A stretch of 32,784 nucleotides of DNA from a virus (taxonomy: Duplodnaviria; Heunggongvirae; Uroviricota; Caudoviricetes): positions 1 through 32,784 of the IMG/VR virus record IMGVR_UViG_3300045988_138410, one strand, 5' to 3'. A model generated the notes under the pieces. That model had not been told where the DNA came from and did not search any database. It worked only from the letters and a program-made list of their open reading frames with translations. Below, piece by piece: positions 17,373-32,215 of this stretch. The position numbers and the translations under genes are program-made. How positions within the stretch are numbered: the stretch's first letter is position 1; every line of letters starts with the position of its first letter.

Positions 17373-18125
17373 TTATCTTGTCACCTTTCTCAATTGTATC
17401 TCTGCATATGCTTCTTCCTGCCAGCACTTTGTAACCAGTTTATCAATGACATCTGCATATCCTTTGTACCACTGATAATCCGTCAGGTCTGGTACCAGCT
17501 TCTGGACATGAAGCCGCGCCAGTGTGGTTGGTAAACGGCTAAACCGGTTTCCATTGCAACGCCCACAAACCTTATAAACAGGCGTGCCATGAAGCCGGGT
17601 TCTTTTTTCATCCAGGACAATACCTTTACCCTTACACCCTCTGCACGCTGTGCTGACTTCTCCCTTACCATGACAATGCTGACACAGTTCCTTCACCCAC
17701 TCTTCCTTGATAACAGATTCCCCGCTTCTGGAGTGTTTTACCACCTCGCGCAATACATCATGAAATCCAGTACCAGCACAATGCTCACAGCGAGCCTTAC
17801 TTGCCGCAGACCTGGAATAATCAGCAAAGGCAAAATTCACAAGGTAAGGAATGATCTGTAGCCGGGTTTCTTCACTCAATTTGTTCAATGTCGGGTTATC
17901 CAGTGCCATCGCGTAATTGAACAGACCTTCAATCGCAAACTGAGGATCCTGAACACCAACTTTTGCCAGGAATAAGGCAAACCCAAGCGGTGCTTTCGAC
18001 TGCACCATCCCCTGCGCAGCCATTACATCCGTAATTGTTAAACCACCAGAGCCTGTCGCCGGTGCGTCATCGCTCAATTTTGGAGATTTTGTGGAGTAAT
18101 ATTTCGGTAAGGCTTCAAGGTTCAT
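17373..18125 (-). CDS. Q: Late antiterminator Q (QuuD/QuuQ-type, multiple CxxC motifs)
   Basis: 250 aa with CEHCAGTG, CQHCHGKG, CRGCKGKG, CGRCNG; located immediately upstream of pR'/tR'. Confidence 0.8.
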   Translation of the reverse strand: MNLEALPKYYSTKSPKLSDDAPATGSGGLTITDVMAAQGMVQSKAPLGFALFLAKVGVQDPQFAIEGLFNYAMALDNPTLNKLSEETRLQIIPYLVNFAFADYSRSAASKARCEHCAGTGFHDVLREVVKHSRSGESVIKEEWVKELCQHCHGKGEVSTACRGCKGKGIVLDEKRTRLHGTPVYKVCGRCNGNRFSRLPTTLARLHVQKLVPDLTDYQWYKGYADVIDKLVTKCWQEEAYAEIQLRKVTR

Positions 18126-19964: not shown

Positions 19965-20354
19965 TCAGGCGGCTGCACCCGCCGTTTTCTCGTACTTACT
20001 GATAGTGATCTCGACCCTCCCTTCCGGGATAACCGGTCCCCACTCCACCAGCATTCTTTTCACCTGACTGTCGTCTTCCCACACACCCGCGTGGGTCAGG
20101 GCGTCAAACAGCGCCTTGTTATAGTTGTCCAGATCGCGGATCCGGTTATCCGGAGGAAACAACACGATCTCCACTGAAGCAGGTGCCGACGTTGGTTTTG
20201 GCAGACGACGTAACTGCTCAACTATTGCTGCACACGCCGCGCTCTGGAATTTGCGCCCCGCCGCGCTTATCAGGCTCTTACCTGCAAACGCCCCTTTGTT
20301 GGGGTGTCGCCAGTACGTGTTCACGCTGGGCGGAAAAGGCAGTATTAGCTTCAT
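19965..20354 (-). CDS. rusA: Holliday junction resolvase RusA
   Basis: PPSVNTYW...RDLDNYNKALFDALTHAGVWEDDSQV matches recalled RusA. Confidence 0.9.
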   Translation of the reverse strand: MKLILPFPPSVNTYWRHPNKGAFAGKSLISAAGRKFQSAACAAIVEQLRRLPKPTSAPASVEIVLFPPDNRIRDLDNYNKALFDALTHAGVWEDDSQVKRMLVEWGPVIPEGRVEITISKYEKTAGAAA

Positions 20355-20677
20355 ACTTTCAGCTCCCTCTCATGTAACCAGTGGGCTGCACGCAGCCTGG
20401 CGTTTTCCTCACCGGCAAGCAGTGCGCGGATAATCCCGACCGCCTCGCTGTCGTCGTCCTTCACCGCGGTATGAAGAGTGATACCCCGGGCCACGCCACG
20501 CTTTATCGTGATGACGCCTTTTTTCTCCAGTGCGCGAAGATGCTCCACCGCTGCATTCACTGAACGGTATCCCAGCATGGTTGCCACCTCCTGATTGGTT
20601 GGCGGGAAGCCACGTTCTTTCTGGTAAGAAATCAGCATATCCAGCACCTGCTGCTGGCATTGAGTTAACGTCGTCAT
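20351..20677 (-). CDS. LexA DNA-binding-domain-only protein (no S24 peptidase domain)
   Basis: LTQCQQQVLDMLISYQKERGFPPTNQEVATMLGYRSVNAAVEHLRALEKKGVI parallels LexA N-terminal domain; only 108 aa. Confidence 0.6.
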   Translation of the reverse strand: MTTLTQCQQQVLDMLISYQKERGFPPTNQEVATMLGYRSVNAAVEHLRALEKKGVITIKRGVARGITLHTAVKDDDSEAVGIIRALLAGEENARLRAAHWLHERELKV

Positions 20678-21327
20678 GCAGCCATCTCCCTGACCAGTTT
20701 TTCCGCCTGCTGGCGAACCTGCGCCAGAAAGGCCTCACCACATGCCTCAAGTTCATCGCGCCCGATGTAGCTGATTGCCGGTCCCTTCCAGGTCTTGTCG
20801 AAAACAGCAATAGCACCAGCTAAGAAAGCGCCTGTCGGCACCTGCTTCTCATCCTTTGGGATAAACCAGGCAGGCAGTTCAAAACCAATACGCCCGCGAA
20901 TAAAAGCAATATGATCTGCATCTTCCGGCCACCACACTTCGCTGGTGGCAGCTTTGATCAGGAAAACATAGCGACCGCCTTTATCACGCATGGCACTGGC
21001 ATGCTTCATGATGTAACGCATGCCGGTGATGTATTGCCCCTCATGCTGACTGGCGCGGCTGTATGGGGGATTACCAAAGGCAGCACCTTTAAGCTCCGCA
21101 AGACGTTCTGACCAGTCATGTGCCAGCGCGTTGTCTTCCGCCGTGTAATACGCGGCACATTTGGCGTTATCACCGTCAGTGAACAGATCCAGAACAAACG
21201 GACCAAACAGGGTGTTAATTCCCCAGAAAATGTTATCCGGCGTGCGCCACTGATCGCCCACTTCCTTCAGTTCATGGGCTGGTTTGTTCCGCAGTTCCAC
21301 CAGCGCCTGGCAATATTTATTACTCAT
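20674..21327 (-). CDS. Phage Dam-family N6-adenine DNA methyltransferase (NPPY)
   Basis: AFGNPPYS motif; start chosen at ATG 21327 (MSNKYCQ) overlapping upstream stop. Confidence 0.8.
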   Translation of the reverse strand: MSNKYCQALVELRNKPAHELKEVGDQWRTPDNIFWGINTLFGPFVLDLFTDGDNAKCAAYYTAEDNALAHDWSERLAELKGAAFGNPPYSRASQHEGQYITGMRYIMKHASAMRDKGGRYVFLIKAATSEVWWPEDADHIAFIRGRIGFELPAWFIPKDEKQVPTGAFLAGAIAVFDKTWKGPAISYIGRDELEACGEAFLAQVRQQAEKLVREMAA

Positions 21328-21821
21328 TAAGCCCCCACGTAATTCCCTGACAGATACCACTCTTCACCTGATGCAGCCCGCTTATTGCTTTTCCGTAAAC
21401 ACCGTTCACGACGCGCCAGAAAATTATTTCGTTCTGGCTGGGAGTGGCTTTCACGGAATGCCGCCATCCACACCGTTGCAGCACGACGGTATAAGCCCCT
21501 AGACTCCAGTTCTTCCGCCTGGCGGGTCAGGCACAAAATCACCCGCGGGTCGTTAGTGCCGACATAGAAATTGCGCACAGGTCTGGTTTCACGAACTGGT
21601 TGTGGTTCCGGCTCCTGCGCTCTCTCAGTCAGGCGTGGGAAATGTCTGCGTGTATCTCCTTCACAACGGTGAGCCACACGCCCACTCTGACGTAACTTGC
21701 TTGCTGACTGCAGAACGCGCTGCCGTGAGTAACCTGCAAAAGCATCCGCAATATCTCCGGAAGTACACCCCGGATGGGCTTCAATGAATTTCTGAACTTC
21801 ATTCAAAAGACTCATGATCAC
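21327..21821 (-). CDS. PerC-family-like transcriptional regulator
   Basis: C-terminal AEELESRGLYRRAATVWMAAF resembles recalled PerC/Pch signature; ATGA coupling to upstream gene. Confidence 0.45.
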   Translation of the reverse strand: MIMSLLNEVQKFIEAHPGCTSGDIADAFAGYSRQRVLQSASKLRQSGRVAHRCEGDTRRHFPRLTERAQEPEPQPVRETRPVRNFYVGTNDPRVILCLTRQAEELESRGLYRRAATVWMAAFRESHSQPERNNFLARRERCLRKSNKRAASGEEWYLSGNYVGA

Positions 21822-22636: not shown

Positions 22637-22857
22637 GCTGCACCTCCGAGATGCTTCATGTTTTTTCCGGAGCGAAACGCTATAAGCGGCATACTGACGC
22701 GGTAACTACGGCCCAGCGGTTCACAAATCACCTTCTGACATTCACGGTCAACCAGGCTAACACGTAGAACATGCCCTGCAGGTGTGGTGTACCACTGACC
22801 CGGACGAGGACAACGGAAAGTCTGATTGGTAAACCGTTTGAAAATATTCCGGATCAT
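22633..22857 (-). CDS. Small hypothetical protein, Cys-containing, translationally coupled on both sides
   Basis: ATGA overlaps with both upstream and downstream genes. Confidence 0.45.
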   Translation of the reverse strand: MIRNIFKRFTNQTFRCPRPGQWYTTPAGHVLRVSLVDRECQKVICEPLGRSYRVSMPLIAFRSGKNMKHLGGAA

Positions 22858-24002
22858 TTGCGCCCCCTTACCTCTGAAGGGTTCAGCGACAAATTTATGA
22901 GGCAGGCCAGTGCCGAAGCATCATTAATATAGTCATACAAGCTAACAGCCAGCGGAGATTCGGCTTTTGCCAACATAGGATAAAGCTGCTGCAGCCAGAC
23001 CTGATGAATTGATGAAATGTAGGAATAGAGAACGCTGGCGTTATGTGCAACGTCGCTCAGTACAGAGGGATTTGAAAGCTGTTTCTCCATCTGGTTAAAG
23101 GCATTGATGTATGCCTCTTTGAACTGGGCAGCACGTTTACCCATGAAACCCATAGCAAGAAACGCAAAGCCGTCGCGGGTTATTTGGTAGCAAGGAAGTT
23201 TGCGACCTGTGCAATCAGTGTAATCACTCACCGAAAAATTGCGGGCAGTGAATGATGCTGAGCATTCAAGCGTGCGGATCTTTTTCAGTACATCGCCATG
23301 ACGTTTGGAGAAGAAGTTGGCAACAGCCAGGGATGAAGTAACAGCCTGACCATCAACGATGGCAATTTCAGGTTGAGTGAGGGTTGGGATCGTAGCCATG
23401 ATGGCAGCCTCCGATAACAGTGAATTACCTTCACCACCGGAAACGCCAATTTCGCTGGTGGTGAACTGAACGGGGTTGGCGTAACCGGCGTTATCGGAAA
23501 CCGGCGCACCTTTCGGTGCCCCCGTCCAGCCCACCATAATTTGGGTGTGCACAGACGCAGACGATAAAAAAGACGCTGGCGCGTCATATATCGCCGATAA
23601 CATTTCCAGGACGCCAATCCCGGCACCCGCTTTATAAGGTGCCTGAACAGTGTAACGTCCCGGAATGGCAGAATCAATGTGCTGGTGGTCCTTCACACTC
23701 AACAAAATCACGCCTGAATTTCCACAAAGGACTAAAGCACTCATGCGGGTAGTCTTTGCGAAGATAGATAACGCGCTGTGTTTCTGGCTCCCAACGAATA
23801 ACATGGACATAAAGCCCTCTTCCATCACGAAACCAGCGGTTAAGTTCCTGCACAACTCGCCCCCCACAGTCAGGTAAAGTTCTCTGTGGTTACTTACAGC
23901 CAGGTGATTTGGTAATCTGCATTCATGCCGTAACAACAGGTGTTCAGCGACACTGACCACCAGCTGTTGCGACAAACGGTTATTTGCCGTTAAACTGTTC
24001 AT
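22854..24002 (-). CDS. Rha-domain regulatory protein with ~200-aa N-terminal extension
   Basis: Central QPEIAIVDGQAVTSSLAVANFFSKRHGDVLKKIRTL..YQITRDGFAFLAMGF resembles Rha family; ATGA coupling to upstream gene supports long start. Confidence 0.55.
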   Translation of the reverse strand: MNSLTANNRLSQQLVVSVAEHLLLRHECRLPNHLAVSNHRELYLTVGGELCRNLTAGFVMEEGFMSMLFVGSQKHSALSIFAKTTRMSALVLCGNSGVILLSVKDHQHIDSAIPGRYTVQAPYKAGAGIGVLEMLSAIYDAPASFLSSASVHTQIMVGWTGAPKGAPVSDNAGYANPVQFTTSEIGVSGGEGNSLLSEAAIMATIPTLTQPEIAIVDGQAVTSSLAVANFFSKRHGDVLKKIRTLECSASFTARNFSVSDYTDCTGRKLPCYQITRDGFAFLAMGFMGKRAAQFKEAYINAFNQMEKQLSNPSVLSDVAHNASVLYSYISSIHQVWLQQLYPMLAKAESPLAVSLYDYINDASALACLINLSLNPSEVRGRK

Positions 24003-24884: not shown

Positions 24885-25559
24885 ATGAAAACAGTCCATG
24901 ACATCCGGCGGTCTAACGCCAGAAAACTGAGAGATGGTGTTGGCGGGAATTCTTCCTTTGCCACCATGATTGATCGCGAGCCAACCCAGACCAGCAGGTT
25001 TATGGGAGATGGTGCTACTAAAAATATCGGTGACAGCATGGCACGGCACATCGAAAAATGTTTCGACCTGCCTGTCGGATGGCTTGATCAAGAACACCAG
25101 ACAACAAACATCACAAAAAAACCTGATGTTTCAATTACTAACAAACAAATAACGTTAGTCCCTGTCATATCATGGGTACAGGCCGGAGCATGGAAAGAAG
25201 TTGGCTATTCTGAGGTTGATTTGAGCACAGCAGAAACTTATCCCTGCCCTGTACCCTGTGGCGAAATGACTTATATCTTGCGGGTGATTGGTGATTCAAT
25301 GATTGATGAGTACCGCCCAGGAGACATGATTTTTGTAGATCCTGAAGTCCCTGCCTGCCACGGTGACGACGTTATTGCATTGATGCACGATACGGGCGAA
25401 ACCACCTTTAAGCGGTTGATAGAAGATGGAACACAGCGTTACCTCAAAGCATTAAACCCAAACTGGCCTGAACCTTACATTAAGATCAACGGTAATTGCT
25501 CTATAATTGGTACAGTAATTTTCTCAGGAAAACCAAGAAGATACAAAATAAAGGCCTAA
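24885..25559 (+). CDS. cI: CI-type prophage repressor with LexA-like S24 autopeptidase domain
   Basis: C-terminal VQAGAW (Ala-Gly cleavage site) ...VIGDSM...K Ser-Lys dyad pattern; divergent from cro-like gene. Confidence 0.85.
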   Translation: MKTVHDIRRSNARKLRDGVGGNSSFATMIDREPTQTSRFMGDGATKNIGDSMARHIEKCFDLPVGWLDQEHQTTNITKKPDVSITNKQITLVPVISWVQAGAWKEVGYSEVDLSTAETYPCPVPCGEMTYILRVIGDSMIDEYRPGDMIFVDPEVPACHGDDVIALMHDTGETTFKRLIEDGTQRYLKALNPNWPEPYIKINGNCSIIGTVIFSGKPRRYKIKA

Positions 25560-25572
25560 TCAATATTTATAA

Positions 25573-25593
25573 CCTGCTTCGGCAGGTTTTTTT
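25573..25593 (+). terminator. Intrinsic terminator after cI (CCTGCTTCGGCAGG + T7)
   Basis: GC stem with TTCG loop followed by T-run. Confidence 0.75.
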
Positions 25594-25597
25594 ATAC

Positions 25598-25630
25598 TTG
25601 ACAATGTACCCTTGAGATACATAATGTATC
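25598..25630 (+). promoter_or_regulatory. pL-like early-left promoter (TTGACA-17-ATAATG) with overlapping palindrome GATACATAATGTATC
   Basis: Consensus -35, 17-bp spacer, near-consensus -10; 15-bp perfect palindrome over -10; shares ATGTACC motif with oR region. Confidence 0.65.
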
Positions 25631-26063
25631 TAAAAGAAACATGCCACAGGCAAGATTAAACAAAATTTGGTTGTAACACGGCGTATGGCACATGCGTCGT
25701 TAGCGGTCTGGGGACGTTAAAGGGGACAATCCACTCCTTGCTCGGGCAAACAAACCAGGTAGCCGGAATGTGCAAGTCAATGAGGATGCTGATAAGACGC
25801 CTAACCAGCGTGGCGATTCGGTTTGACGCCTGGGAAGAGACCAGGGTGCAACGATGAGGGCATTTATGGAACCGCGACAAAGTGTGGTGCCGTAACAGGC
25901 TAAGTGCTCTCAGCGTTGTGGTGAATGCGCAGGCTGATGCGCGAAAGACATTGCAGCTATTGCGGAAAAGAGCTGTTCGGCGGGGCAATTAAACGCCCGT
26001 GAGAGTCTGAAATAACCGCAAGCCGGAGATCAGCACCGGTCACCACAACAGCCACTGCTTTGG

Positions 26064-26197
26064 CGGTACCAGTTTGTACACTTACTTCCGGCTGGTACCG
26101 CTCTTTTTACAAAACAGAGAAGAGCATCACCGGACGACGGGCTCATAACCCAATCCATCCGTGCGGCAGTCACCGCAGGTGTTCTTCTCTGTTTTGT
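26064..26197 (+). promoter_or_regulatory. Structured leader element: boxA-like CGCTCTTTTTA flanked by two long stem-loops
   Basis: Inverted repeats CGGTACCAG/CTGGTACCG (26064-26100) and ACAAAACAGAGAAGA/TCTTCTCTGTTTTGT (26109-26197) with inner hairpin; function inferred only. Confidence 0.35.
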
Positions 26198-26245
26198 GGA
26201 GAAACCAACCGACCTTGCAGGGTCGATATGATGAGGAGCAGCAAA

Positions 26246-26608
26246 ATGGCTAGCGAACGCAGTACTGATGTGCAGGCATTTATCGGGGAGCTGGACGGCG
26301 GCGTATTTGAAACCAAAATCGGCGCAGTTCTCAGTGAAGTCGCTTCCGGTGTGATGAACACGAAAACCAAAGGTAAGGTCTCGCTCAACCTAGAAATCGA
26401 ACCGTTTGATGAGAACCGTGTGAAAATCAAACACAAACTCTCATATGTTCGCCCGACTAACCGCGGGAAAATTTCCGAAGAAGACACCACCGAAACGCCG
26501 ATGTATGTCAATCGCGGTGGTCGCCTGACTATTCTGCAGGAAGACCAGGGACAATTACTGACTCTTGCCGGTGAACCTGACGGAAAACTCCGCGCAGCAG
26601 GTCATTAA
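26246..26608 (+). CDS. Hypothetical protein, first gene of early-left operon
   Basis: 120 aa from ATG 26246 with GAGGAG RBS; no family recognised. Confidence 0.55.
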   Translation: MASERSTDVQAFIGELDGGVFETKIGAVLSEVASGVMNTKTKGKVSLNLEIEPFDENRVKIKHKLSYVRPTNRGKISEEDTTETPMYVNRGGRLTILQEDQGQLLTLAGEPDGKLRAAGH

Positions 26609-27498: not shown

Positions 27499-27625
27499 TT
27501 TCATTACTGCAAATGCCCCTGCGGGGGCATTTATGGAAACGTAATTGACTCAATAATCGCCGGATGGTGAGGGCTTCCTTTTACCCGAGCTCAGCGCAGT
27601 GCAGCGCATATACGTGGAGAACAAA

Positions 27626-28162
27626 ATGTCATTTATTAAAACTTTTTCCGGGAAGCATTTTTATTATGACAGGATAAATAAAGACAACATCGATATTAAC
27701 GATATCGCAGTTTCCCTTTCAAATATCTGTCGCTTTGCAGGACATCTTTCACACTTCTACAGTGTCGCCCAGCATGCGGTGCTTTGCAGCCAGCTGGTGC
27801 CGCAAGAATTTGCTTTTGAAGCGTTAATGCATGATGCAACAGAAGCATATTGCCAGGACATCCCCGCGCCACTGAAACGACTTCTTCCTGACTATAAACG
27901 GATGGAAGAAAAAATAGACGCCGTAATCCGTGAGAAATACGGGTTACCTCCTGTTATGAGCACGCCAGTGAAATATGCCGATCTCATTATGCTGGCAACC
28001 GAACGCCGTGATCTCGGGCTTGATGATGGCTCTTTCTGGCCTGTTCTGGAAGGTATCCCGGCAACAGAGATGTTCAAAGTTATTCCACTGTCGCCAGGCC
28101 ATGCCTACGGGATGTTTATGGAACGTTTTAACGAGTTATCGGAGTTACGCAAATGCGCATGA
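27626..28162 (+). CDS. HD-domain phosphohydrolase (YfdR-like 5'-deoxynucleotidase)
   Basis: HD signature H..L.HDA.EA; start chosen at ATG 27626 (ORF-track start is GTG); GGAG RBS. Confidence 0.65.
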   Translation: MSFIKTFSGKHFYYDRINKDNIDINDIAVSLSNICRFAGHLSHFYSVAQHAVLCSQLVPQEFAFEALMHDATEAYCQDIPAPLKRLLPDYKRMEEKIDAVIREKYGLPPVMSTPVKYADLIMLATERRDLGLDDGSFWPVLEGIPATEMFKVIPLSPGHAYGMFMERFNELSELRKCA

Positions 28163-28515
28163 ATGTTTTCGAAATGGAAGGGTTTCTTCGCGGGAAATGT
28201 GTACCGCGAGATCTGAAAGTGAATGAAACAAATGCTGAGTACCTGGTACGTAAATTCGATGCGCTTGAAGCTAAATGTGCGGCACTGGAAAACAAAATAA
28301 TACCAGTGTCAGCTGAACTGCCGCCAGCAAATGAAAGTGTTCTGTTATTTGATGCTAACGGAGAAGGCTGGCTAATTGGCTGGCGTTCTCTCTGGTACAC
28401 CTGGGGACAAAAAGAAACCGGAGAATGGCAGTGGACATTTCAGGTCGGGGACCTTGAAAACGTCAATATCACTCACTGGGCAGTAATGCCGAAAGCACCG
28501 GAGAATAAGAAATGA
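28153..28515 (+). CDS. DUF551-family phage protein (YfdS-like)
   Basis: C-terminal HWAVMPKAPE as in DUF551; GGAG RBS. Confidence 0.55.
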   Translation: MRMNVFEMEGFLRGKCVPRDLKVNETNAEYLVRKFDALEAKCAALENKIIPVSAELPPANESVLLFDANGEGWLIGWRSLWYTWGQKETGEWQWTFQVGDLENVNITHWAVMPKAPENKK

Positions 28516-28715
28516 GCGTGATAAAAACTCATACGGGAATTGTTATCACCCGAGACGGTCCGCAGGTAAAAAAACTGCACCAGACAAAGCGGATGTGGGT
28601 CGTCGGAAAAAACGAGTTTTACCACAAAGAAAACGGACGCCGCCACTTTGCAGAAAATACTCGCCGCCGACTGCTGATCGATACCATCAAGCCTATCGAG
28701 GTGAAGCATATTTAA
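28512..28715 (+). CDS. Small basic hypothetical protein
   Basis: 67 aa; ATGA overlap with upstream stop; GGAG RBS. Confidence 0.4.
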   Translation: MSVIKTHTGIVITRDGPQVKKLHQTKRMWVVGKNEFYHKENGRRHFAENTRRRLLIDTIKPIEVKHI

Positions 28716-29082
28716 ACAGAACGAAAAATCTATCGCTCAAATCGCTGAGTATATCCCGCGTGCGTGCCGGGGTATGCAGTTGCAGGAAGCCAAAGCACGC
28801 CTGGAGAAAAAAATTGCGCTCTATATCGATGACGGCTGTGATACTGCCGTTCTTAACGCGGCGTTCGCGCCAGCTCTTAACAGTCATACGCGAGAGTCTT
28901 TTTTTTCGTGCATCGCAGCGCAGATCCGCAAAGGAGGCAGCCAGTGAGTAGGTTCGTAAGGTTACAGATACGTATATCTGAATAATTAAATTCAGTTCTG
29001 TAAATAAAATTTAATCCTTAACCGGAGGGATTCCTGCACCCTCAGAACATCAGGAGACCGCCCGAAAGGGCGGTAATGAAAA

Positions 29083-29550
29083 ATGGCTGAATTAACCAAA
29101 TGGCTACAAAACACGATTACCGGAATTGAAACGGTAGTAGACGATAAATCGTTTGTATGTGATGAAATAGTATTCAAAATCGATGTGGTTAAAAACGTAC
29201 TTACCGCATTTAAAGTCGCGCTGGCATCGCTGGAAGCCGAACCGGTGACATGGCGATATCGCTACGTGAGAAAAGGCGTTACGAACTTTCAGGAGAAGCC
29301 GTGGGTTGGTGACTGGAAATATGTACCGACAAAAGAGGATTGCAACGACAGGCCGAACTATGAAATTCAGGCGTTATTCACGGCCCAGCCTGTGCCACTG
29401 ACACCCGAAGGATTGATTAAAGCGGTGCGCTTCTATGAACAGGTTAAGAGTGAAAATCCGCCAGTCGAAACCGGAGCATGGAAAGACGCTGTTGACTGGG
29501 TGCTCAAAGAGGCTTGTCAGGCTGTAAACATTGGCATCAAAGGAGAGTGA
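29083..29550 (+). CDS. Hypothetical protein with N-terminal module paralogous to 29746 gene
   Basis: N-terminus LTKWLQNTITGIE...LTAFKVALASLEA parallels LTKEWLQNTITSIE...LTALKIALASLAA. Confidence 0.5.
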   Translation: MAELTKWLQNTITGIETVVDDKSFVCDEIVFKIDVVKNVLTAFKVALASLEAEPVTWRYRYVRKGVTNFQEKPWVGDWKYVPTKEDCNDRPNYEIQALFTAQPVPLTPEGLIKAVRFYEQVKSENPPVETGAWKDAVDWVLKEACQAVNIGIKGE

Positions 29551-29551
29551 G

Positions 29552-29743
29552 ATGAACGGACAAATATCAATTGTTCGACCGGGAGCATGTGACGATCGCG
29601 AGATACGAATGATTATTCGTCTGGCGATGGGGAAAACAATAACAGCTCTCATTACTCCTGAAAATCTCGCATTAGCATTAACAGGAAAGTCAGACTTGCC
29701 AGTAGAGCTAAAGCTGCGAAATGTTGAGATTAAGGTGAAATAG
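29552..29743 (+). CDS. Small hypothetical protein
   Basis: 63 aa from ATG 29552 with AAAGGAGAG RBS. Confidence 0.4.
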   Translation: MNGQISIVRPGACDDREIRMIIRLAMGKTITALITPENLALALTGKSDLPVELKLRNVEIKVK

Positions 29744-29745
29744 TT

Positions 29746-30645
29746 ATGAATACTCTTACCAAAGAATGGTTACAGAACACGATTACCAGCATTGAGTCAG
29801 CACGGGATGAAATACCGTTCGGACTCGATGAAGATCAAAACAACATGCTTACCGCATTAAAAATTGCACTGGCATCACTGGCAGCAGTATCGGATGAACG
29901 AGCAGCCTATGAATTATTTATGGAGAAGCGTTTCGGGGAATCTGTAGATCGCCGTAGGGCAAAAAATGGCGATAGAGAATACATGGCATGGGATATGGCG
30001 CTTGGCTGGATTATCTGGTGTCACCGCGCCTCCATGCTTCAGGGTAGCCAACCTGTAAGCCAAACTTACAACTTGCCAGAATTAATCGAAGGCATGGAAG
30101 TTTCCATTGATGTAAGCACTTGTGATGCTGATTTAGGTAATCGCTATTTCGGCACCGTCACCGAGGCGTTAGAACTTGATACTGCCAAGAATGGTTACAT
30201 CCTCCTGGTTCAGGACGCAGAGCCAAACTTCGATATAAATGGCAACTCTCCGGTAATTCCGGATGGTTTATCCACGGTATGCGCTGAGGCTTATCAGGTT
30301 GTAGGAGTTATGGCAGATGCGCTTGGTGTATTCGGTGATGCAGCAGTACAGAAAGTTCTGGATAACCTGTCACAGCAAAAACTTGTTCACAGAGATGTGC
30401 TGCCGTTCTCGCTTCCGGTAACTCCGGATGGTTGGATAAGCTGTAGTGAGCGAATGCCGGAAAAGGGCCAGAACGTGCTCATTTCGGTGAATTTCGATAG
30501 CTCTCTGGTTGAACCGCTAATATGCTCCGCACGCTATACCGGAAGCACTTTTCGGCGCGGAGATGCAACGATTAAGCCGGGTAATGGTATTGAGCAAGCA
30601 ACTCACTGGATGCCGCTACCGGAACCGCCGCAGGAGGTGAAGTGA
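29746..30645 (+). CDS. Hypothetical protein, shared N-terminal module plus C-terminal DUF551-like region
   Basis: C-terminal HWMPLPEPP; AAGGTGA RBS. Confidence 0.55.
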   Translation: MNTLTKEWLQNTITSIESARDEIPFGLDEDQNNMLTALKIALASLAAVSDERAAYELFMEKRFGESVDRRRAKNGDREYMAWDMALGWIIWCHRASMLQGSQPVSQTYNLPELIEGMEVSIDVSTCDADLGNRYFGTVTEALELDTAKNGYILLVQDAEPNFDINGNSPVIPDGLSTVCAEAYQVVGVMADALGVFGDAAVQKVLDNLSQQKLVHRDVLPFSLPVTPDGWISCSERMPEKGQNVLISVNFDSSLVEPLICSARYTGSTFRRGDATIKPGNGIEQATHWMPLPEPPQEVK

Positions 30646-31217
30646 TGAACAACTTAATGATCGACCTTGAGACGATGGGGAAAAATAAGGATGCACCGAT
30701 CGTTTCCATTGGCGCGGTGTTCTTCACTCCAGAAACCGGAGACATCGGACAAGAATTTTATGCGGTTGTCAGCCTGGACAGTGCTATGGAGCAAGGGGCC
30801 ACACCTGACGGCGATACCATCCTGTGGTGGTTGAAACAAAGCCCTGAAGCACGAGCTGCAATCTGTATTGATGATACTTTGTCGATCAGCGATGCACTCT
30901 CTGAACTGAGCCATTTCATTAATCGGCACGCAGACAATACGAAATATTTAAAAGTTTGGGGTAACGGGGCCACCTTCGACAACGTAATTTTACGCGGAGC
31001 TTATGAACGAGCAGGACAAATCTGCCCATGGGCGTACTGGAATGATCACGATGTACGCACGATCGTTACGCTTGGGCGTTCCATCGGATTCGACCCCAAA
31101 ATGGACATGCCTTTCGATGGCGAACGGCACAACGCCCTGGCTGATGCTCGTCATCAGGCAAAATATGTTTCAGCTATCTGGCAGAAATTAATTCCTGCCA
31201 CCAGCACAGAATTATGA
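30645..31217 (+). CDS. DnaQ-like 3'-5' exonuclease (DEDDh)
   Basis: MIDLETMG (Exo I), WGNGATFD (Exo II), H...ALADA (Exo III); AGGAGGTGA RBS. Confidence 0.7.
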   Translation: MNNLMIDLETMGKNKDAPIVSIGAVFFTPETGDIGQEFYAVVSLDSAMEQGATPDGDTILWWLKQSPEARAAICIDDTLSISDALSELSHFINRHADNTKYLKVWGNGATFDNVILRGAYERAGQICPWAYWNDHDVRTIVTLGRSIGFDPKMDMPFDGERHNALADARHQAKYVSAIWQKLIPATSTEL

Positions 31218-31253
31218 TTTTCCCGGGTGCAGCCGGTTTTGATGGAGAAAATT

Positions 31254-31535
31254 ATGAACACCTTGTTTTTACTGATGGCTGAATTCAATACCCCAAATAT
31301 TGAACTCTCAGCAGTTAGCCAAAAGTACTTTGGTATGAGTCCAGCCACGGCAGAAGCAAAAGCAAACGCTTGTAAGTTGCCCGTTCCAACATATCGCATC
31401 GGCACATCACAAAAAGCAAAACGTTGCATCAATATTCAAGATCTTGCGGAATACATAGACAAAAGGCGAGAAGAAGGACGTATCGAGTGGGAACAGGTCA
31501 GAACAGTCAAACAGAAGGGCAAAGAACATCACTAA
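31254..31535 (+). CDS. Excisionase-like / PrtN-family small DNA-binding protein
   Basis: FNTPNIELSAVSQKYFGMS...AEYIDKRREEG pattern recalled from PrtN/Xis-like family; last gene before terminator. Confidence 0.5.
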   Translation: MNTLFLLMAEFNTPNIELSAVSQKYFGMSPATAEAKANACKLPVPTYRIGTSQKAKRCINIQDLAEYIDKRREEGRIEWEQVRTVKQKGKEHH

Positions 31536-31537
31536 AG

Positions 31538-31565
31538 AAAAAACCCGCCTGAAGGCGGGTTTTCA
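31538..31565. terminator. Bidirectional intrinsic terminator (ACCCGCC-TGAA-GGCGGGT, A-run upstream, T-run downstream)
   Basis: Hairpin flanked by AAAGAAAAAA and TTTTC; sits between convergent operons. Confidence 0.75.
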
Positions 31566-31582
31566 AAAAGCACCAGCTATGA

Positions 31583-31756
31583 TCATGCTGCTTTGCGACG
31601 ACGAAGCTTACCCTGCTGCTCTTTACCAGAGACAGTAGCGTGAGTGAACGCATTAGGAGCAGCCTTCATCAGAACTTCAACAGCAGCACCCATACCTGCG
31701 AATGCTTTCATTGTGTCGAACTTAACCTGTGGCTTGGTTGCTTTTTGATCTTCCAT
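31583..31756 (-). CDS. Small 57-aa protein with basic C-terminal tail (below ORF-track cutoff)
   Basis: MEDQKATKPQVKFDTMKAFAGMGAAVEVLMKAAPNAFTHATVSGKEQQGKLRRRKAA; GGAG RBS 7 nt upstream. Confidence 0.45.
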   Translation of the reverse strand: MEDQKATKPQVKFDTMKAFAGMGAAVEVLMKAAPNAFTHATVSGKEQQGKLRRRKAA

Positions 31757-31795
31757 AGAAAACTCCAGAAGTTATACCGAAACAATTCCTGTTGT

Positions 31796-32215
31796 TTACT
31801 CATCATCAATAGATGATACGCAATATTTATTTTTAAATTTAAGGTTCTTTGGCGTAACTTCATCAGATATATCAAAACCGTCCAGAATTCTATTGAATGT
31901 AGCTTCTGGCATATCATCATGAACAGAAATCTCACCCGATTGCTGCTTTCTAACCATGTTATCCACTCGCCAAATTATAGCTTCAGCGTAAACAACATAA
32001 CTTGGATGCTTGATAAAGCGATGATCACCTGAATTCAAGACGCAAGACGGATCGTGGGGAACCCCATCCTTGATACTAGAAATATTAACAACTAAAACAC
32101 AATAACAATCGTTAACGGGGTAATAAACAGGATCATTACAAATCACATGAAGATGATTGCATGGCCCAGTTGGGGCAAGCACAGTTCCTTTCCTGTATGG
32201 CTGATAATCCGTCAT
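31796..32215 (-). CDS. Uncharacterised 139-aa protein, candidate toxin/effector partner of the Panacea-like gene
   Basis: 4-bp ATGA overlap with upstream gene; AT-rich codon usage; no family recognised. Confidence 0.55.
   Translation of the reverse strand: MTDYQPYRKGTVLAPTGPCNHLHVICNDPVYYPVNDCYCVLVVNISSIKDGVPHDPSCVLNSGDHRFIKHPSYVVYAEAIIWRVDNMVRKQQSGEISVHDDMPEATFNRILDGFDISDEVTPKNLKFKNKYCVSSIDDE

What the first reader, a model, noticed from the sequence alone, without database searches (positions are those of the whole stretch)
25630..26245. About 600-nt untranslated structured leader after the pL-like promoter, with boxA-like motif and long stem-loops, in a phage lacking N
A near-consensus promoter is followed by ~615 nt with no convincing ORF in either strand before the first early-left gene. 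The segment is not AT-rich. It contains CGCTCTTTTTA (boxA-like, ~26099-26109) bracketed by a 9-bp inverted repeat (26064-26100) and a 15-bp perfect inverted repeat (26109-26197) enclosing an inner hairpin. No N-like protein is encoded anywhere in the window. Possibilities are a cis-acting antitermination RNA (HK022 put-like), a nut-like site for a host factor, a processed small RNA, or a decayed gene: one frame is open for ~66 codons without an ATG.
Basis: partly seen in the sequence, partly recalled or inferred. Interest (0 to 1): 0.6.

Follow-up and report, generated by a model that had tools for sequence, protein, structure and literature searches.

The report
Phage leader packed with RNA genes
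The 615 "empty" bases after this prophage's early-left promoter are a chain of conserved, swappable structured-RNA modules rather than a boxA/antitermination leader, and one module is a small-RNA gene of the PasD/STnc100 kind whose 22-base core is identical in phages of three classes of Proteobacteria.

Summary
A near-consensus promoter (25598-25625) is followed by about 615 nt with no conserved ORF, and both inverted repeats are real.

Most of the interpretation does not hold. The "boxA-like" CGCTCTTTTTA is the 3' stem end plus U-tract of a conserved intrinsic terminator. I found no boxA consensus, no N protein, and no similarity to HK022 put.

The region is a chain of modules that recur independently in unrelated phages:
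- module A (25676-25849), also in P1 and epsilon15-like phages
- a long "S-stem" hairpin (25848-25919)
- a tRNA-shaped domain (25916-26048): closing helix, AAU, two near-invariant hairpins with complementary loops, and a variable insert
- a terminator (26062-26108)
- a second S-stem hairpin (26103-26202) holding a copy of the initiator-tRNA anticodon arm

Domain, spacer and terminator together have the same plan as the Hfq-dependent prophage sRNAs STnc100 and PasD. SfV and ST64B carry sub-threshold STnc100 matches in the same slot. The window's version is a distinct sister family that is absent from Rfam. Its 22-nt core is identical in at least 120 viral contigs and 111 species genomes.

Best reading: ncRNA gene cassettes driven by pL, with attenuated read-through into yfdP. 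Function is untested.

The parts
25571..25595 (+). Intrinsic terminator ending the repressor (ymfK-like) transcript
   Evidence: A 7-bp GC-rich stem (AACCTGC/GCAGGTT) followed by T7.
25598..25631 (+). pL-like promoter: -35 at 25598-25603, -10 at 25620-25625, with a palindromic operator-like site GATACATAATGTATC at 25616-25630. The start point is inferred at about 25632.
   Evidence: The consensus scan gives 11 of 12 matches. The palindrome is read from the sequence. Repressor control is inferred, not tested.
25676..25849 (+). Module A: a conserved structured RNA of about 175 nt with unknown function
   Evidence: It is shared with P1 (directly after trnI and before ban), with phiV10/epsilon15-like podophages (upstream of tRNA-Arg), and with Kp4866-6. 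nhmmer finds 140 copies in 18 sequence clusters among the loci held. The consensus has 27 pairs, 98.3% paired, 7 with compensatory changes; 0 of 500 shuffles reach the covariation score, and slid controls pair at 25-40%. P1-type copies have stops in all six frames. There is no Rfam match.
25848..25919 (+). S-stem hairpin L: a stem of about 18 bp (GCAACGATGAGGGCATTT with AAGTGCTCTCAGCGTTGT) enclosing a variable insert. Its 3' strand is the 'linker' that precedes the next module.
   Evidence: MFE is -33.9 kcal/mol with z = -3.8. The same stem with different inserts occurs in O157 typing phage 10, Tyrion and Kp4866-6. Of 205 unique linker contexts, 82 have an upstream partner matching at least 15 of 17 positions, against 4 in shuffles. 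The two strands covary. Its last 4 nt overlap the outer pairs of P1 of the next domain.
25916..26048 (+). Domain B (type-1 'GGUGAAU' domain). P1 is 25916-25923 with 26041-26048. AAU is 25924-25926. H1 (GCGCA-GGCUGA-UGCGC) is 25927-25942. The variable insert is 25943-26021. H2 (GCCGG-AGAUCAGCA-CCGGU) is 26022-26040 and abuts the P1 3' strand.
   Evidence: Covariance model R1 scores 69 bits, E = 1e-16, and finds only one copy in the window. It gives 104 matches in 100 sources. Pairing is 98.4%, 12 of 17 pairs have compensatory changes, and 0 of 500 shuffles reach this. When copies are sampled by their 3' half, the H1 stem covaries. The loops are complementary (GCUGA with UCAGC): 97% compatible, with only G-C to G-U changes. 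The single-sequence MFE recovers P1, H1 and H2.
26049..26061 (+). Single-stranded spacer (CAGCCACTGCTTT) between the domain and the terminator. In PasD1 the seed lies in the equivalent position.
   Evidence: Comparison with the PasD1 sequence and its published seed. That this spacer is a seed is inferred only.
26062..26109 (+). Intrinsic terminator: stem 26062-26072 with 26092-26102 and U-tract 26102-26108.
   Evidence: MFE is -21.2 kcal/mol. The stem is kept by compensatory changes in SfV, ST64B, Flotzy and Kp4866-6. It aligns with the terminator of the Rfam STnc100 model in SfV.
26103..26202 (+). S-stem hairpin D: a stem of about 25 bp (including the 15-bp arms 26109-26123 with 26183-26197, and U-tract 26103-26107 pairing with GGAGA 26198-26202) closing a three-way junction
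   Evidence: MFE is -48.3 kcal/mol. The alifold on five phages gives 50 pairs (terminator plus hairpin D), 13 of them compensatory. In L493 the 3' strand of the D-type stem is the linker consensus itself.
26135..26153 (+). Inner arm of hairpin D that copies the anticodon stem-loop of initiator tRNA-fMet (CGACGGGCTCATAACCCAA)
   Evidence: It is 17 of 19 identical to E. coli metY, including the three G-C pairs and the CAU anticodon. It is kept in ST64B, and in Pantoea phage PA-1 in a different context.
26162..26177 (+). Second inner hairpin of D (TGCGG-CAGTCA-CCGCA)
   Evidence: ST64B has a hairpin of different sequence at the same place (GCTG-TTA-CAGC).
26210..26248 (+). Small hairpin (26210-26225), Shine-Dalgarno GAGGAG (26233-26238) and the ATG of yfdP (26246)
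   Evidence: From the fold and the sequence. PGAP places the yfdP start at this position.

Best explanation
The "leader" is a cassette of non-coding RNA genes inserted between the repressor-controlled early-left promoter and the first early-left gene, yfdP.

Proposed sequence of events:
1. When the repressor is inactivated, pL transcribes module A, a structured RNA of unknown role.
2. It then transcribes S-stem hairpin L and the type-1 GGUGAAU domain.
3. Most polymerases stop at the intrinsic terminator (26062-26108).
4. The domain, a short single-stranded spacer, and the terminator hairpin with its U-tail together form a small RNA of about 195 nt (25916 to about 26108). It is built on the same plan as the Hfq-dependent prophage sRNAs STnc100 and PasD/EcOnc13.
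5. By analogy, this RNA acts in trans by base pairing with host or phage mRNAs.
6. The polymerases that read through make the yfdP-yfdQ-yfdR mRNA. In those transcripts the U-tract is drawn into the roughly 25-bp stem of hairpin D.
7. The two long S-stems (L and D) bracket the sRNA unit and are the likely sites where the transcript is cut into its parts. RNase III is the obvious candidate enzyme.

Shown by computation: the region is non-coding; each module is conserved with covariation; the modules move independently among phages; the architecture matches STnc100/PasD; the terminator is conserved.

Inferred: expression from pL, the 3' end at the terminator, Hfq binding, trans action, RNase III processing, and attenuation of the downstream genes.
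For: Modularity:
- blastn shows the leader breaks into blocks that occur separately in P1, P7, SJ46, phiV10/epsilon15-like phages, HK633, phiEt88, SfV/SfII/SfIV, ST64B and Klebsiella phages.
- cdtI/Ayreon-type phages carry a different GUGGUAAU-type RNA in the same slot.
- L125-type phages have domain B directly behind the promoter, with no module A.

Domain B is a real RNA family:
- 69 bits in the window.
- 104 matches in 100 sources, with 12 of 17 pairs compensatory.
- The H1 stem covaries when copies are sampled by the 3' half.

Same plan as STnc100 and PasD:
- The Rfam STnc100 consensus is gcaUGGUG-AAU-hairpin-inserts-CCGGGAGGCACCCGG-CACCAugC, then a spacer, then a terminator.
- SfV, ST64B, P1 and L100 copies in equivalent positions score 30-39.5 bits against RF02076.
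- The SfV terminator that aligns with the STnc100 terminator is the homologue of window 26062-26109.
- PasD1 (173 nt) was verified by Northern blot and RIL-seq and is Hfq-dependent (PMC8550237). Its sequence reads GCAUGGUGAAU-CCUCCUUGGAGGGG...CGCCAUGC, then a spacer holding the seed, then a terminator.
- Zhu, Shabalina and Storz link PasD and STnc100 structurally (bioRxiv 10.64898/2026.05.13.724894).

Other support:
- The terminator is conserved by covariation.
- A strict scan finds terminators after 66 of 188 type-1 copies, against 29 of 188 upstream and 17 of 188 antisense.
- S-stems covary.
- There is no other promoter-like site inside the leader.
Against: - The window's domain is not recognised by RF02076 even at E up to 10. 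PasD1 scores only 10 bits with my model. Homology to STnc100/PasD therefore rests on shared architecture, shared ends (UGGUGAAU and CACCA) and shared genomic slot, not on a significant sequence or model score.
- Only about a third of type-1 copies have an obvious terminator nearby. Many copies lie in tandem (L120, L040, L031, L030) or next to tRNA genes on the same strand. That is unusual for Hfq sRNAs.
- A 22-nt core identical across Alpha-, Beta- and Gammaproteobacteria is far more conserved than base-pairing sRNAs usually are. It points to a conserved partner other than an mRNA seed target.
- The spacer that would hold the seed is only about 13 nt here.
- I found no expression, Hfq-binding or processing data for this locus.
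- Module A has no assigned role in this model.
Confidence: 0.6

Rival explanations
1. tRNA mimic or scaffold. Domain B folds like a tRNA whose anticodon arm is replaced by a variable insert. P1 (7-9 bp) would stack on H2 (5 bp) like the acceptor and T arms. H1 would take the D-arm position, and the H1-H2 loop pairing would replace the D-loop/T-loop elbow. The RNA would be handled by tRNA enzymes, or would act as a decoy or display frame for host or defence proteins that bind tRNA or rRNA.
For: - Topology and helix lengths fit: P1 is 7-9 bp in 94 of 101 copies, H2 abuts the P1 3' strand, and AAU lies between P1 and H1.
- The loops are complementary.
- In O157 typing phage 10 and SPN1S the same linker is followed by tRNA-Arg exactly where domain B starts in the window.
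- All 17 tRNA genes within 1 kb of a copy are on the same strand.
- Some inserts copy host RNA pieces: 16S rRNA nt 254-282 in L093, L103 and L123, and tRNA D and T arms in L084.
- Hairpin D carries the initiator-tRNA anticodon arm.
- The extreme cross-class conservation of the core suggests a universal partner.
Against: - ARAGORN and the Rfam tRNA model do not call it a tRNA.
- Only 15 of 140 loci have a canonical tRNA within 1 kb.
- No CCA is encoded after P1, and the first unpaired base varies.
- The STnc100 model starts about 30 nt upstream of P1, and PasD1 starts at a promoter, so RNase P is not needed for their 5' ends.
- The outer P1 pairs compete with hairpin L in the window.
- The loop-loop pairing has no compensatory changes to prove it.
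Confidence: 0.15
2. Cis-acting processive antitermination RNA, working like put or EAR. Module A and/or domain B would modify RNA polymerase as they emerge, so that it reads through the terminator at 26062-26108 and later ones. This would replace N in this phage.
For: - The elements lie right after a strong early promoter and just before a conserved terminator that must be passed to express the early-left operon.
- No N-like protein was found.
- mEp460, whose leader is 98.8% identical from window 25659 on, comes from a collection described as Nus-dependent phages (PMC11893012).
- Module A is always near the start of a transcription unit or upstream of further RNA genes.
Against: - There is no similarity to the HK022 put region.
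- The architecture differs: a closing helix with two internal hairpins and an insert, rather than two side-by-side stem-loops (PMC9378689).
- The same elements sit downstream of Q-controlled late promoters (HK633, phiEt88) and in lytic phages.
- Sister phages lack module A, or carry another RNA type in the slot, with the same terminator and genes downstream.
- There is no boxA consensus.
Confidence: 0.1
3. The type-1 core is a small self-cleaving ribozyme, or a ligand- or protein-binding aptamer, that processes or controls the transcripts in which it sits.
For: - The core is about 55 nt, with near-invariant nucleotides, a covarying closing helix and an optional variable domain.
- Its minimal version is 66 nt (L127).
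- It shows prophage association, tandem copies and a very wide taxonomic spread.
- These are the features usually seen in small ribozyme classes; that comparison comes from my own knowledge.
Against: - No known ribozyme or riboswitch family matches.
- No expression platform overlaps P1.
- There is no biochemical evidence.
- The shared plan with Hfq sRNAs offers a simpler reading.
Confidence: 0.06
4. A remnant of a protein-coding gene, or real small ORFs as annotated in mEp460, Ayreon and cdtI. Alternatively, a DNA-level recombination cassette site in which the inverted CAAC...GTTG repeats flank variable inserts.
For: - Depositors annotated hypothetical CDSs across the region.
- There is a 110-aa ORF on the minus strand.
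- The same linker borders very different neighbours, as at cassette junctions.
Against: - The ORF has no Pfam match.
- PGAP calls no CDS there.
- P1-type module A copies have stops in all frames.
- Indels between homologues are not in multiples of three, and substitutions are compensatory in helices on one strand.
- All neighbouring tRNA genes share the strand, which fits an RNA-level function.
Confidence: 0.04

Closest known systems
STnc100 (Rfam RF02076) and PasD1/PasD2 (EcOnc13): Hfq-dependent sRNAs of lambdoid prophages in Salmonella, EPEC and EHEC
   Same: They share the overall plan. A closing helix begins ...UGGUG and is followed by AAU. A first hairpin follows, then inserted hairpins, then a second hairpin abutting the CACCA 3' strand, then a short single-stranded spacer, then an intrinsic terminator with a U-tail. 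They also share the prophage location near Q/lysis genes, tRNAs and TerB. Related phages (SfV, ST64B) have STnc100-like copies in the very slot that domain B fills here, and the terminators are homologous.
   Different: The H1 and H2 sequences and loops are different: GCGCAGGCUGAUGCGC and GCCGGAGAUCAGCACCGGC here, against CCCCC...GGGG and CCGGGAGGCACCCGG in STnc100. RF02076 does not detect the window copy, and my model does not detect PasD1. The type-1 core is spread across three proteobacterial classes, whereas the Pas sRNAs are described as largely restricted to Escherichia and Shigella (bioRxiv 10.64898/2026.05.13.724894). Here the RNA lies in the pL leader rather than the late region.
HK022 putL/putR antiterminator RNAs
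   Same: Both are structured RNA immediately downstream of an early promoter in a phage without N, followed by terminators.
   Different: put is about 70 nt with two adjacent stem-loops in a V shape that bind the beta' zinc-binding domain (PMC9378689). There is no sequence or model similarity here. The elements here also occur outside early operons.
lambda nut sites and rrn boxA (NusB/NusE site, consensus GYTCTTTAANA)
   Same: GCTCTTT-like strings occur at 26100 and in the common form of the linker (GUGCUCUUUCCGUU).
   Different: Both strings are strands of covarying helices or a terminator U-tract. They match only 7 of the 10 specified positions. The string at 26100 is not conserved in homologues. 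There is no boxB and no N.
tRNA and tRNA-like domains (the tmRNA tRNA-like domain, YrlA; engineered 'tRNA scaffolds')
   Same: Domain B has a four-way layout with a 7-9 bp closing helix stacked on a 5-bp hairpin, a 3-nt connector, a second hairpin, and the variable part where the anticodon arm would be. It occupies tRNA positions in phage RNA gene arrays.
   Different: It has no T-loop or D-loop consensus, no anticodon arm and no CCA. tRNA detectors do not call it.
RNase III processing stems in phage early transcripts (lambda N leader, T7 early region) and around rRNA; this comparison is from my own knowledge
   Same: Long stems of about 18-25 bp, nearly perfect, bracket functional RNAs in an early transcript. 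One of them lies just upstream of the first gene's ribosome-binding site.
   Different: Cleavage has not been tested. The stems belong to one conserved sequence family (GAGAGCAY with RUGCUCUC) with variable inserts, which I do not know from the classical sites.
GOLLD and ROOL, large ncRNAs that are often phage-borne and adjacent to tRNA genes
   Same: They are phage-borne structured RNAs of unknown function that are found beside tRNA genes.
   Different: They have no Rfam match here, are of a different size, and occur in different host groups.

Membership tests
STnc100 (RF02076) / PasD | Match to the Rfam covariance model at or above the gathering score (47 bits) | tested here: not met
   There is no RF02076 match in window 25500-26400 even at E up to 10. 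Relatives in the same slot (SfV 39.5, ST64B 35.1, P1 33.4, L100 30.1 bits) are also sub-threshold.
STnc100 (RF02076) / PasD | Architecture: UGGUG-AAU-hairpin-inserts-hairpin-CACCA closing helix, then a spacer, then an intrinsic terminator with a U-tail | tested here: met
   The window has P1 25916-25923 with 26041-26048, AAU, H1, insert, H2, spacer, and terminator 26062-26108. This compares directly with the model consensus and with the PasD1 sequence.
STnc100 (RF02076) / PasD | Expressed as a discrete Hfq-bound, Hfq-stabilised RNA with mRNA partners | not testable with these tools
   This has been shown for PasD1/PasD2 (PMC8550237). I found no data for this locus.
HK022 put RNA | Sequence or structure similarity to putL/putR (two adjacent stem-loops, about 70 nt) | tested here: not met
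   Model R1 scores at best 11 bits on HK022 27600-32000. blastn with word size 7 gives only chance hits. The structure is described in PMC9378689.
HK022 put RNA | Promotes terminator read-through in cis through the RNAP beta' zinc-binding domain | not testable with these tools
   This needs reporter fusions and rpoC mutants.
nut site / boxA | boxA consensus GYTCTTTAANA in single-stranded RNA | tested here: not met
   No match with one mismatch or fewer in the leader. The four matches elsewhere in the window are at the chance level. The string at 26100 matches 7 of 10 positions and is the terminator stem plus U-tract. The linker is one strand of an 18-bp helix.
nut site / boxA | boxB hairpin together with an N-type protein | tested here: not met
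   No N-like family was found among ORFs of at least 75 aa. No boxB-like GNRA-type hairpin lies next to the GCTCT strings. Smaller ORFs were not scanned.
tRNA | Cloverleaf with anticodon arm and T/D loop consensus, as recognised by ARAGORN or Rfam RF00005 | tested here: not met
   ARAGORN finds no tRNA in the window. There is no RF00005 match in the leader.
Intrinsic (Rho-independent) terminator | GC-rich hairpin directly followed by a U-tract, conserved in relatives | tested here: met
   The stem is 11-13 bp at -21.2 kcal/mol, followed by UCUUUUU. The stem is kept by compensatory changes in five phages.
Protein-coding gene | An open frame conserved among homologues, or a family match | tested here: not met
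   There are stops in all frames of the leader and of P1-type module A. The minus-strand ORF has no Pfam match. PGAP calls no CDS there.

The most novel reading that the evidence does not exclude
The type-1 GGUGAAU domain may be more than another enterobacterial sRNA. It could be a widespread phage RNA scaffold shaped like a tRNA, with its elbow made by Watson-Crick loop-loop pairing. Its near-invariant core would then dock on a universally conserved host machine, or on a defence nuclease that targets tRNA, or would itself be catalytic. The position of the anticodon arm would display interchangeable inserts, some of which copy host RNA pieces (16S rRNA helix 11, tRNA arms). STnc100 and PasD would be derived members of this superfamily. 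The S-stem hairpins, one of which carries an initiator-tRNA anticodon-arm copy, would be a second class of display or processing cassettes in the same arrays.
Probability: 0.2. Interest if true: 0.85.

Novelty: new variant of a known kind. Interest (0 to 1): 0.6.

Why it matters
- **Scale of the gap in annotation.** Parts of this leader occur in 2849 of 5426 complete E. coli genomes, and at least 80% of it in 798. RefSeq annotates nothing there, while phage depositors annotate doubtful ORFs across it, including P1 upl/plp.
- **A wider family for known sRNAs.** Recognising the region as RNA genes links the experimentally known but functionally unexplained prophage sRNAs PasD, EcOnc13 and STnc100 to a much larger and far more conserved family. 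That family extends into Beta- and Alphaproteobacteria.
- **A hint at the partner.** A 22-nt core that stays identical across such distances suggests a conserved molecular partner is still to be found.
- **New elements to test.** Module A and the S-stem cassettes add further building blocks of phage non-coding RNA arrays that can now be tested directly.
- **Consequence for phage regulation.** In this widespread SfV/mEp460/cdtI-type group, the early-left operon lies behind a conserved terminator with no recognisable N, nut or put system.

Tried and rejected
- **Rfam.** The gathering-threshold scan of the whole window finds only C4 and isrK, and both lie elsewhere. Permissive scans of the leader and of 21 related loci find nothing for module A, type-1 domain B, or hairpins L and D.
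- **tRNA.** ARAGORN finds none.
- **put.** Rejected.
- **boxA.** I first took the conserved linker GUGCUCUUUCCGUU for an rrn-like boxA, because GCTCT is enriched upstream of domain B (38 of 101 copies against 3.2 expected). I rejected this after finding that the linker is the 3' strand of a covarying 17-19 bp stem and does not fit GYTCTTTAANA.
- **Coding.** Rejected.
- **Inserts as copies of rRNA.** Of 93 insert types compared with the E. coli rrnB operon, only one type resembles 16S. The window's own insert resembles nothing I could test.
- **Terminator scan.** My first scan, based on RNAfold energy, was too permissive (controls 65 and 117 of 188). I replaced it with an explicit stem search.
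- **Literature.** String searches for the core sequences in papers and supplements gave no hit. The P1 genome paper was not available. The mEp021 Gp17/nut system concerns a different phage group.
- **PasB.** The PasB probe is not present in the window.
- **RNase P.** Processing at the start of P1 is weakened as an idea because STnc100 and PasD have their own 5' ends.
Full report
**Setting.** The window is a prophage of the SfV/mEp460/cdtI type. An S24/LexA-family repressor gene (24885-25559, plus strand) ends at a terminator (25571-25588). It is followed by TTGACA-16 nt-CATAAT (25598-25625, 11 of 12 matches) with a 15-bp palindrome over the -10 hexamer. The first early-left gene, yfdP, starts at 26246 and is followed by yfdQ (DUF2303) and yfdR (HD 5'-deoxynucleotidase). 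The rightward operon on the minus strand encodes a CII-like protein, a Rha/Ash antirepressor, replication functions and a Q antiterminator at 17373-18125. No N-like family was found among ORFs of at least 75 aa.

**The observation.** The 615 nt fold much better than shuffled sequence (z = -4.65). They have stops in all six frames. In a 99.5% identical E. coli chromosome, PGAP leaves the gap between ymfK and yfdP empty. Depositors of mEp460 and Ayreon placed short hypothetical CDSs there on both strands. The largest of these ORFs in the window (110 aa, minus strand) has no Pfam match.

**The leader is modular.** blastn against 50,697 phage records splits the leader into blocks:
- The whole leader is present at about 89% identity in cdtI, Ayreon and Stx2c phages.
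- Window 25659-26250 is 98.8% identical in mEp460.
- Window 25912-26250 alone is present in other Stx phages.
- Window 25665-25921 is present in P1, P7, SJ46 and the phiV10/epsilon15-like podophages.
- A piece of about 40 nt (25903-25944) occurs in very many unrelated phages of Klebsiella, Erwinia, Edwardsiella and Cronobacter, and in HK633.
- Window 26097-26209 is present in ST64B, SfII, SfIV and a Klebsiella phage.

In P1 the first block lies directly after trnI and before ban. In O157 typing phage 10 it lies upstream of tRNA-Arg. In HK633 and phiEt88 the 40-nt piece lies between Q/pR' and the lysis genes. The blocks are therefore independent units, not parts of one dedicated leader.

**Domain B (25916-26048).** It also occurs in 111 species-representative genomes. 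These include Enterobacterales, Aeromonas, Pseudomonas, Halomonadaceae, Xanthomonadales and many Betaproteobacteria (Janthinobacterium, Achromobacter, Pandoraea, Comamonas, Thauera). A few are Alphaproteobacteria.

All copies share one plan:
- a closing helix P1 whose outer pairs covary (UGU/ACA, GUU/AAC, GAU/AUC, UGG/CCA, GAG/CUC and others)
- the connector AAU
- hairpin H1 (GCGCA-GGCUGA-UGCGC)
- an insert of 12 to more than 300 nt
- hairpin H2 (GCCGG-AGAUCAGCA-CCGGC), which abuts the P1 3' strand

A covariance model built from 26 copies finds the window copy at 69 bits and nothing else in the window. Over 100 sources it finds 104 matches. On that alignment 98.4% of cells pair, 12 of 17 pairs show compensatory changes, no shuffle out of 500 reaches this, and slid controls pair at 30-60%. 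The alignment is fitted to the model, but the P1 covariation is visible in the raw sequences.

Because the first sample fixed the 5' half, I sampled again by the 3' half. Of 122 unique contexts, 87 still carry the exact 22-mer. The remainder show H1 stem covariation (GCGUA/UACGC, GCGAA/UUCGC, GCCCG/CGGGC, GUGCA/UGCAC) with the loop GGCUGA kept.

The two loops are complementary (GCUGA with UCAGC). They are 97% compatible, and the only variation is G-C to G-U. A kissing contact is therefore consistent with the data but not proven. No Rfam family matches, even for the 66-nt minimal copy in L127.

**What domain B resembles.** Two comparisons matter.

First, tRNA. P1 is 7-9 bp in 94 of 101 copies and stacks on the 5-bp H2. 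H1 sits where the D arm would be, and the insert sits where the anticodon arm would be. In O157 typing phage 10 and SPN1S the identical upstream sequence AGTGCTCTCAGCGTT is followed by tRNA-Arg exactly where domain B begins in the window. All 17 canonical tRNA genes within 1 kb of a copy are on the same strand, although only 15 of 140 loci have one.

Second, and more concretely, the prophage sRNAs STnc100 and PasD. In SfV, ST64B, P1 and L100 the same slot holds a variant (GUGGUGAAU-GCGGCU..CGC ... CCGGG-AGGCA-CCCGG-CACCAC). That variant matches Rfam STnc100 at 30-39.5 bits, below the gathering score of 47. The model consensus printed shows the same plan: gcaUGGUG, AAU, a hairpin, inserted hairpins, CCGGGAGGCACCCGG, CACCAugC, a spacer of about 25 nt, and an intrinsic terminator. 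In SfV that terminator aligns with GGCGGTACCA...GGTACCGTCCTTTTT, which is the homologue of window 26062-26109.

PasD1 of EPEC E2348/69 is 173 nt, was confirmed by Northern blot and RIL-seq, is Hfq-dependent, and corresponds to EcOnc13 in EHEC (PMC8550237). Its sequence reads GCAUGGUGAAU-CCUCCUUGGAGGGG ... CGCCAUGC, then a single-stranded stretch holding its seed UGUGAG, then a terminator. Zhu, Shabalina and Storz recently reported that PasD and STnc100 are structural homologues (bioRxiv 10.64898/2026.05.13.724894).

The window's unit 25916-26108 therefore has the build of this sRNA class but with different H1 and H2 sequences. RF02076 does not detect it, and my model gives PasD1 only 10 bits. 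I file it as a sister family, not as a member.

**The terminator and the "boxA".** Stem 26062-26072 with 26092-26102 (-21 kcal/mol) is followed by UCUUUUU. In ST64B, Kp4866-6 and Flotzy the corresponding sequences are ...GACGCCGACCTTTTTACAC...ACCGCCCTTTTTACAC and ...GGGCACCTTTTTTACAC. The stem changes by compensatory substitutions, and only the U-tract and the following ACAC are constant. The published boxA consensus GYTCTTTAANA (PMC5725501) has no match with one mismatch or fewer in the leader. A strict scan finds terminators within 200 nt after 66 of 188 unique type-1 copies, against 29 upstream and 17 antisense. The link is enriched but not universal.

**S-stem hairpins.** The conserved linker in front of domain B puzzled me until folding showed what it is. 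It is the 3' strand of an 18-bp stem whose 5' strand is the conserved CAACGATGAGRGCATT at the end of module A (hairpin L, 25848-25919; z = -3.8).
- The same stem encloses different inserts in Tyrion and in Kp4866-6. In Kp4866-6 the insert holds two T-arm-like hairpins.
- Across 205 unique linker contexts, 82 have an upstream partner matching at least 15 of 17 positions, against 4 in shuffles and 10 in a downstream control.
- The two strands covary: CAACGGAAAGAGCACTG pairs with CAGTGCTCTTTCCGTTG, and CAACGTTGAGAACACTG pairs with CAGTGTTCTCAACGTTG.
Its stem reaches about 25 bp because the terminator U-tract pairs with a conserved GGAGA. It covaries among five phages.
- In L493 the 3' strand of the D-type stem is the linker consensus itself.
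- The same linker precedes 29 type-1 domains, 17 other GUGGUGAAU-type RNAs, one tRNA-Arg and 56 other sequences. That is the pattern expected at cassette borders.

Stems of this length are plausible RNase III sites; that is inference from general knowledge. The last four bases of hairpin L overlap the outer pairs of P1.

**Hairpin D contents.** One inner arm (26135-26153, CGACGGGCTCATAACCCAA) is 17 of 19 identical to the anticodon stem-loop of E. coli initiator tRNA (metY). The match includes the three G-C pairs and the CAU anticodon. The arm is kept in ST64B, and in Pantoea phage PA-1 in a late-region context. I cannot say what reads it.

**Module A (25676-25849).** There are 140 copies in 18 sequence clusters among the loci held. 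The consensus has 27 pairs at 98.3% pairing, and 7 pairs have compensatory changes, in three of six helices. The long-range GCACAU/AUGUGC helix is invariant and so is untested. No shuffle out of 500 reaches the covariation score, and slid controls pair at 25-40%. An alternative local hairpin at its 5' end also has one compensatory pair. Module A has no terminator of its own. It always lies near the start of a transcription unit, or directly after a tRNA gene as in P1. Its function is unknown.

**How it most likely works.** I judge the region to be an ncRNA gene cassette under pL control. The transcript largely ends at 26108. It yields a PasD/STnc100-type sRNA that acts in trans, and it is processed at the S-stems. 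A fraction reads through into yfdP. My confidence is 0.6 for the sRNA-cassette reading as a whole and lower for each inferred step. Three things do not fit a plain Hfq sRNA: the cross-class identity of the core, the tandem and tRNA-linked copies, and the inserts that copy host RNAs. Those inserts are 16S nt 254-282 in L093, L103 and L123, and tRNA D and T arms in L084. For that reason the tRNA-mimic/scaffold reading (0.15), a put-like cis function (0.10) and a ribozyme or aptamer (0.06) are kept as rivals.

**Novelty.** PasD, EcOnc13 and STnc100 are known. The type-1 family, module A and the S-stem cassettes are not in Rfam 15, and I found no paper describing them. They may be among the unnamed candidates of large phage RNA catalogues (PMC10690425), which I could not check. 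I rate the finding as a new variant of a known kind.

Noticed in passing
window 23454-23642 (minus strand): A C4 antisense RNA (82.8 bits) and an isrK RNA (63.7 bits) lie side by side. Both fall inside the long ORF 22854-24002, which encodes the Ash/Rha antirepressor domains. This looks like a P1-type immI (c4-ant) control module. The annotated 382-aa ORF probably starts downstream of these RNAs. SfV and Ayreon have the same pair.
   Followed up: partly
L005 (phage P1 AF234172) 809-908 and 1070-1191, i.e. record 69818-69917 and 70079-70200: P1 carries a type-1 domain (64.6 bits) and an STnc100-like domain (23.5 bits with R1; 33.4 bits with RF02076) on the plus strand, between tRNA-Thr and tciA. 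They overlap the annotated minus-strand CDSs plp/upl and the predicted upl promoters. Those annotations may need revision.
   Followed up: partly
L093 4600-4646, L123 1953-1999, L103 (inserts of type-1 domains): The variable insert copies E. coli 16S rRNA nt 254-282 (the helix 11 region), in the sense orientation. Rfam SSU E-values are 1.7e-5 and 8e-7. Local blast gives 86-90% identity over 29 nt.
   Followed up: partly
L084 3978-4026; L120 399-743: In L084 the insert is a tRNA D arm plus T arm with no anticodon arm (Rfam tRNA 34 bits). L120 has three or four type-1 copies in tandem within 350 nt, and ARAGORN calls a tRNA-Pro inside one of them. L040, L031 and L030 have two copies each.
   Followed up: no
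L247 (Klebsiella phage Kp4866-6) 600-690; L241 (SPN1S) about 880-925: The inserts inside S-stem hairpins contain hairpins with a perfect T-loop sequence (GGTTCGATTCC, GTCCGTTCGATTCGGAC). They look like the 3' halves of tRNAs without the 5' halves.
   Followed up: no
L001 (Ayreon), L158 (cdtI type): the slot equivalent to window 25916-26048: A different RNA fills the slot: GUGGU-AAU-CCGCG-AAAUGG-CGCGG ... UUGUCA..GACCAUAC..UGACAA-CCCC-ACCAC. Its first hairpin loop (AUGG) is complementary to CCAU in the last hairpin loop. This parallels GCUGA/UCAGC in type 1 and may be a case of loop-loop covariation between types.
   Followed up: partly
window 30642-31217 and 27599-28162: The early-left operon behind this RNA cassette encodes an Rv2179c-like 3'-5' exoribonuclease (E = 1.9e-75) and the HD-domain 5'-deoxynucleotidase YfdR. 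An RNase gene sharing an operon with RNA genes may be worth a look.
   Followed up: no
L002 (mEp460) 2462-2830 and 2872-3015; L001 (Ayreon) 2679-2798 and 2900-3094: Hypothetical CDSs deposited across module A, domain B and the terminator, on both strands, are probably not genes.
   Followed up: partly
window 20351-20677 and 21327-21821 (minus strand): A stand-alone LexA DNA-binding-domain protein (108 aa) and a PerC-like activator domain are encoded in the rightward operon.
   Followed up: no
L003 (SfV) 2673-3152: In place of module A, SfV has orf33 (99 aa, unknown function) followed by its own terminator, and then the STnc100-like unit. The leader of this phage group is thus a hot spot for insertions.
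   Followed up: no
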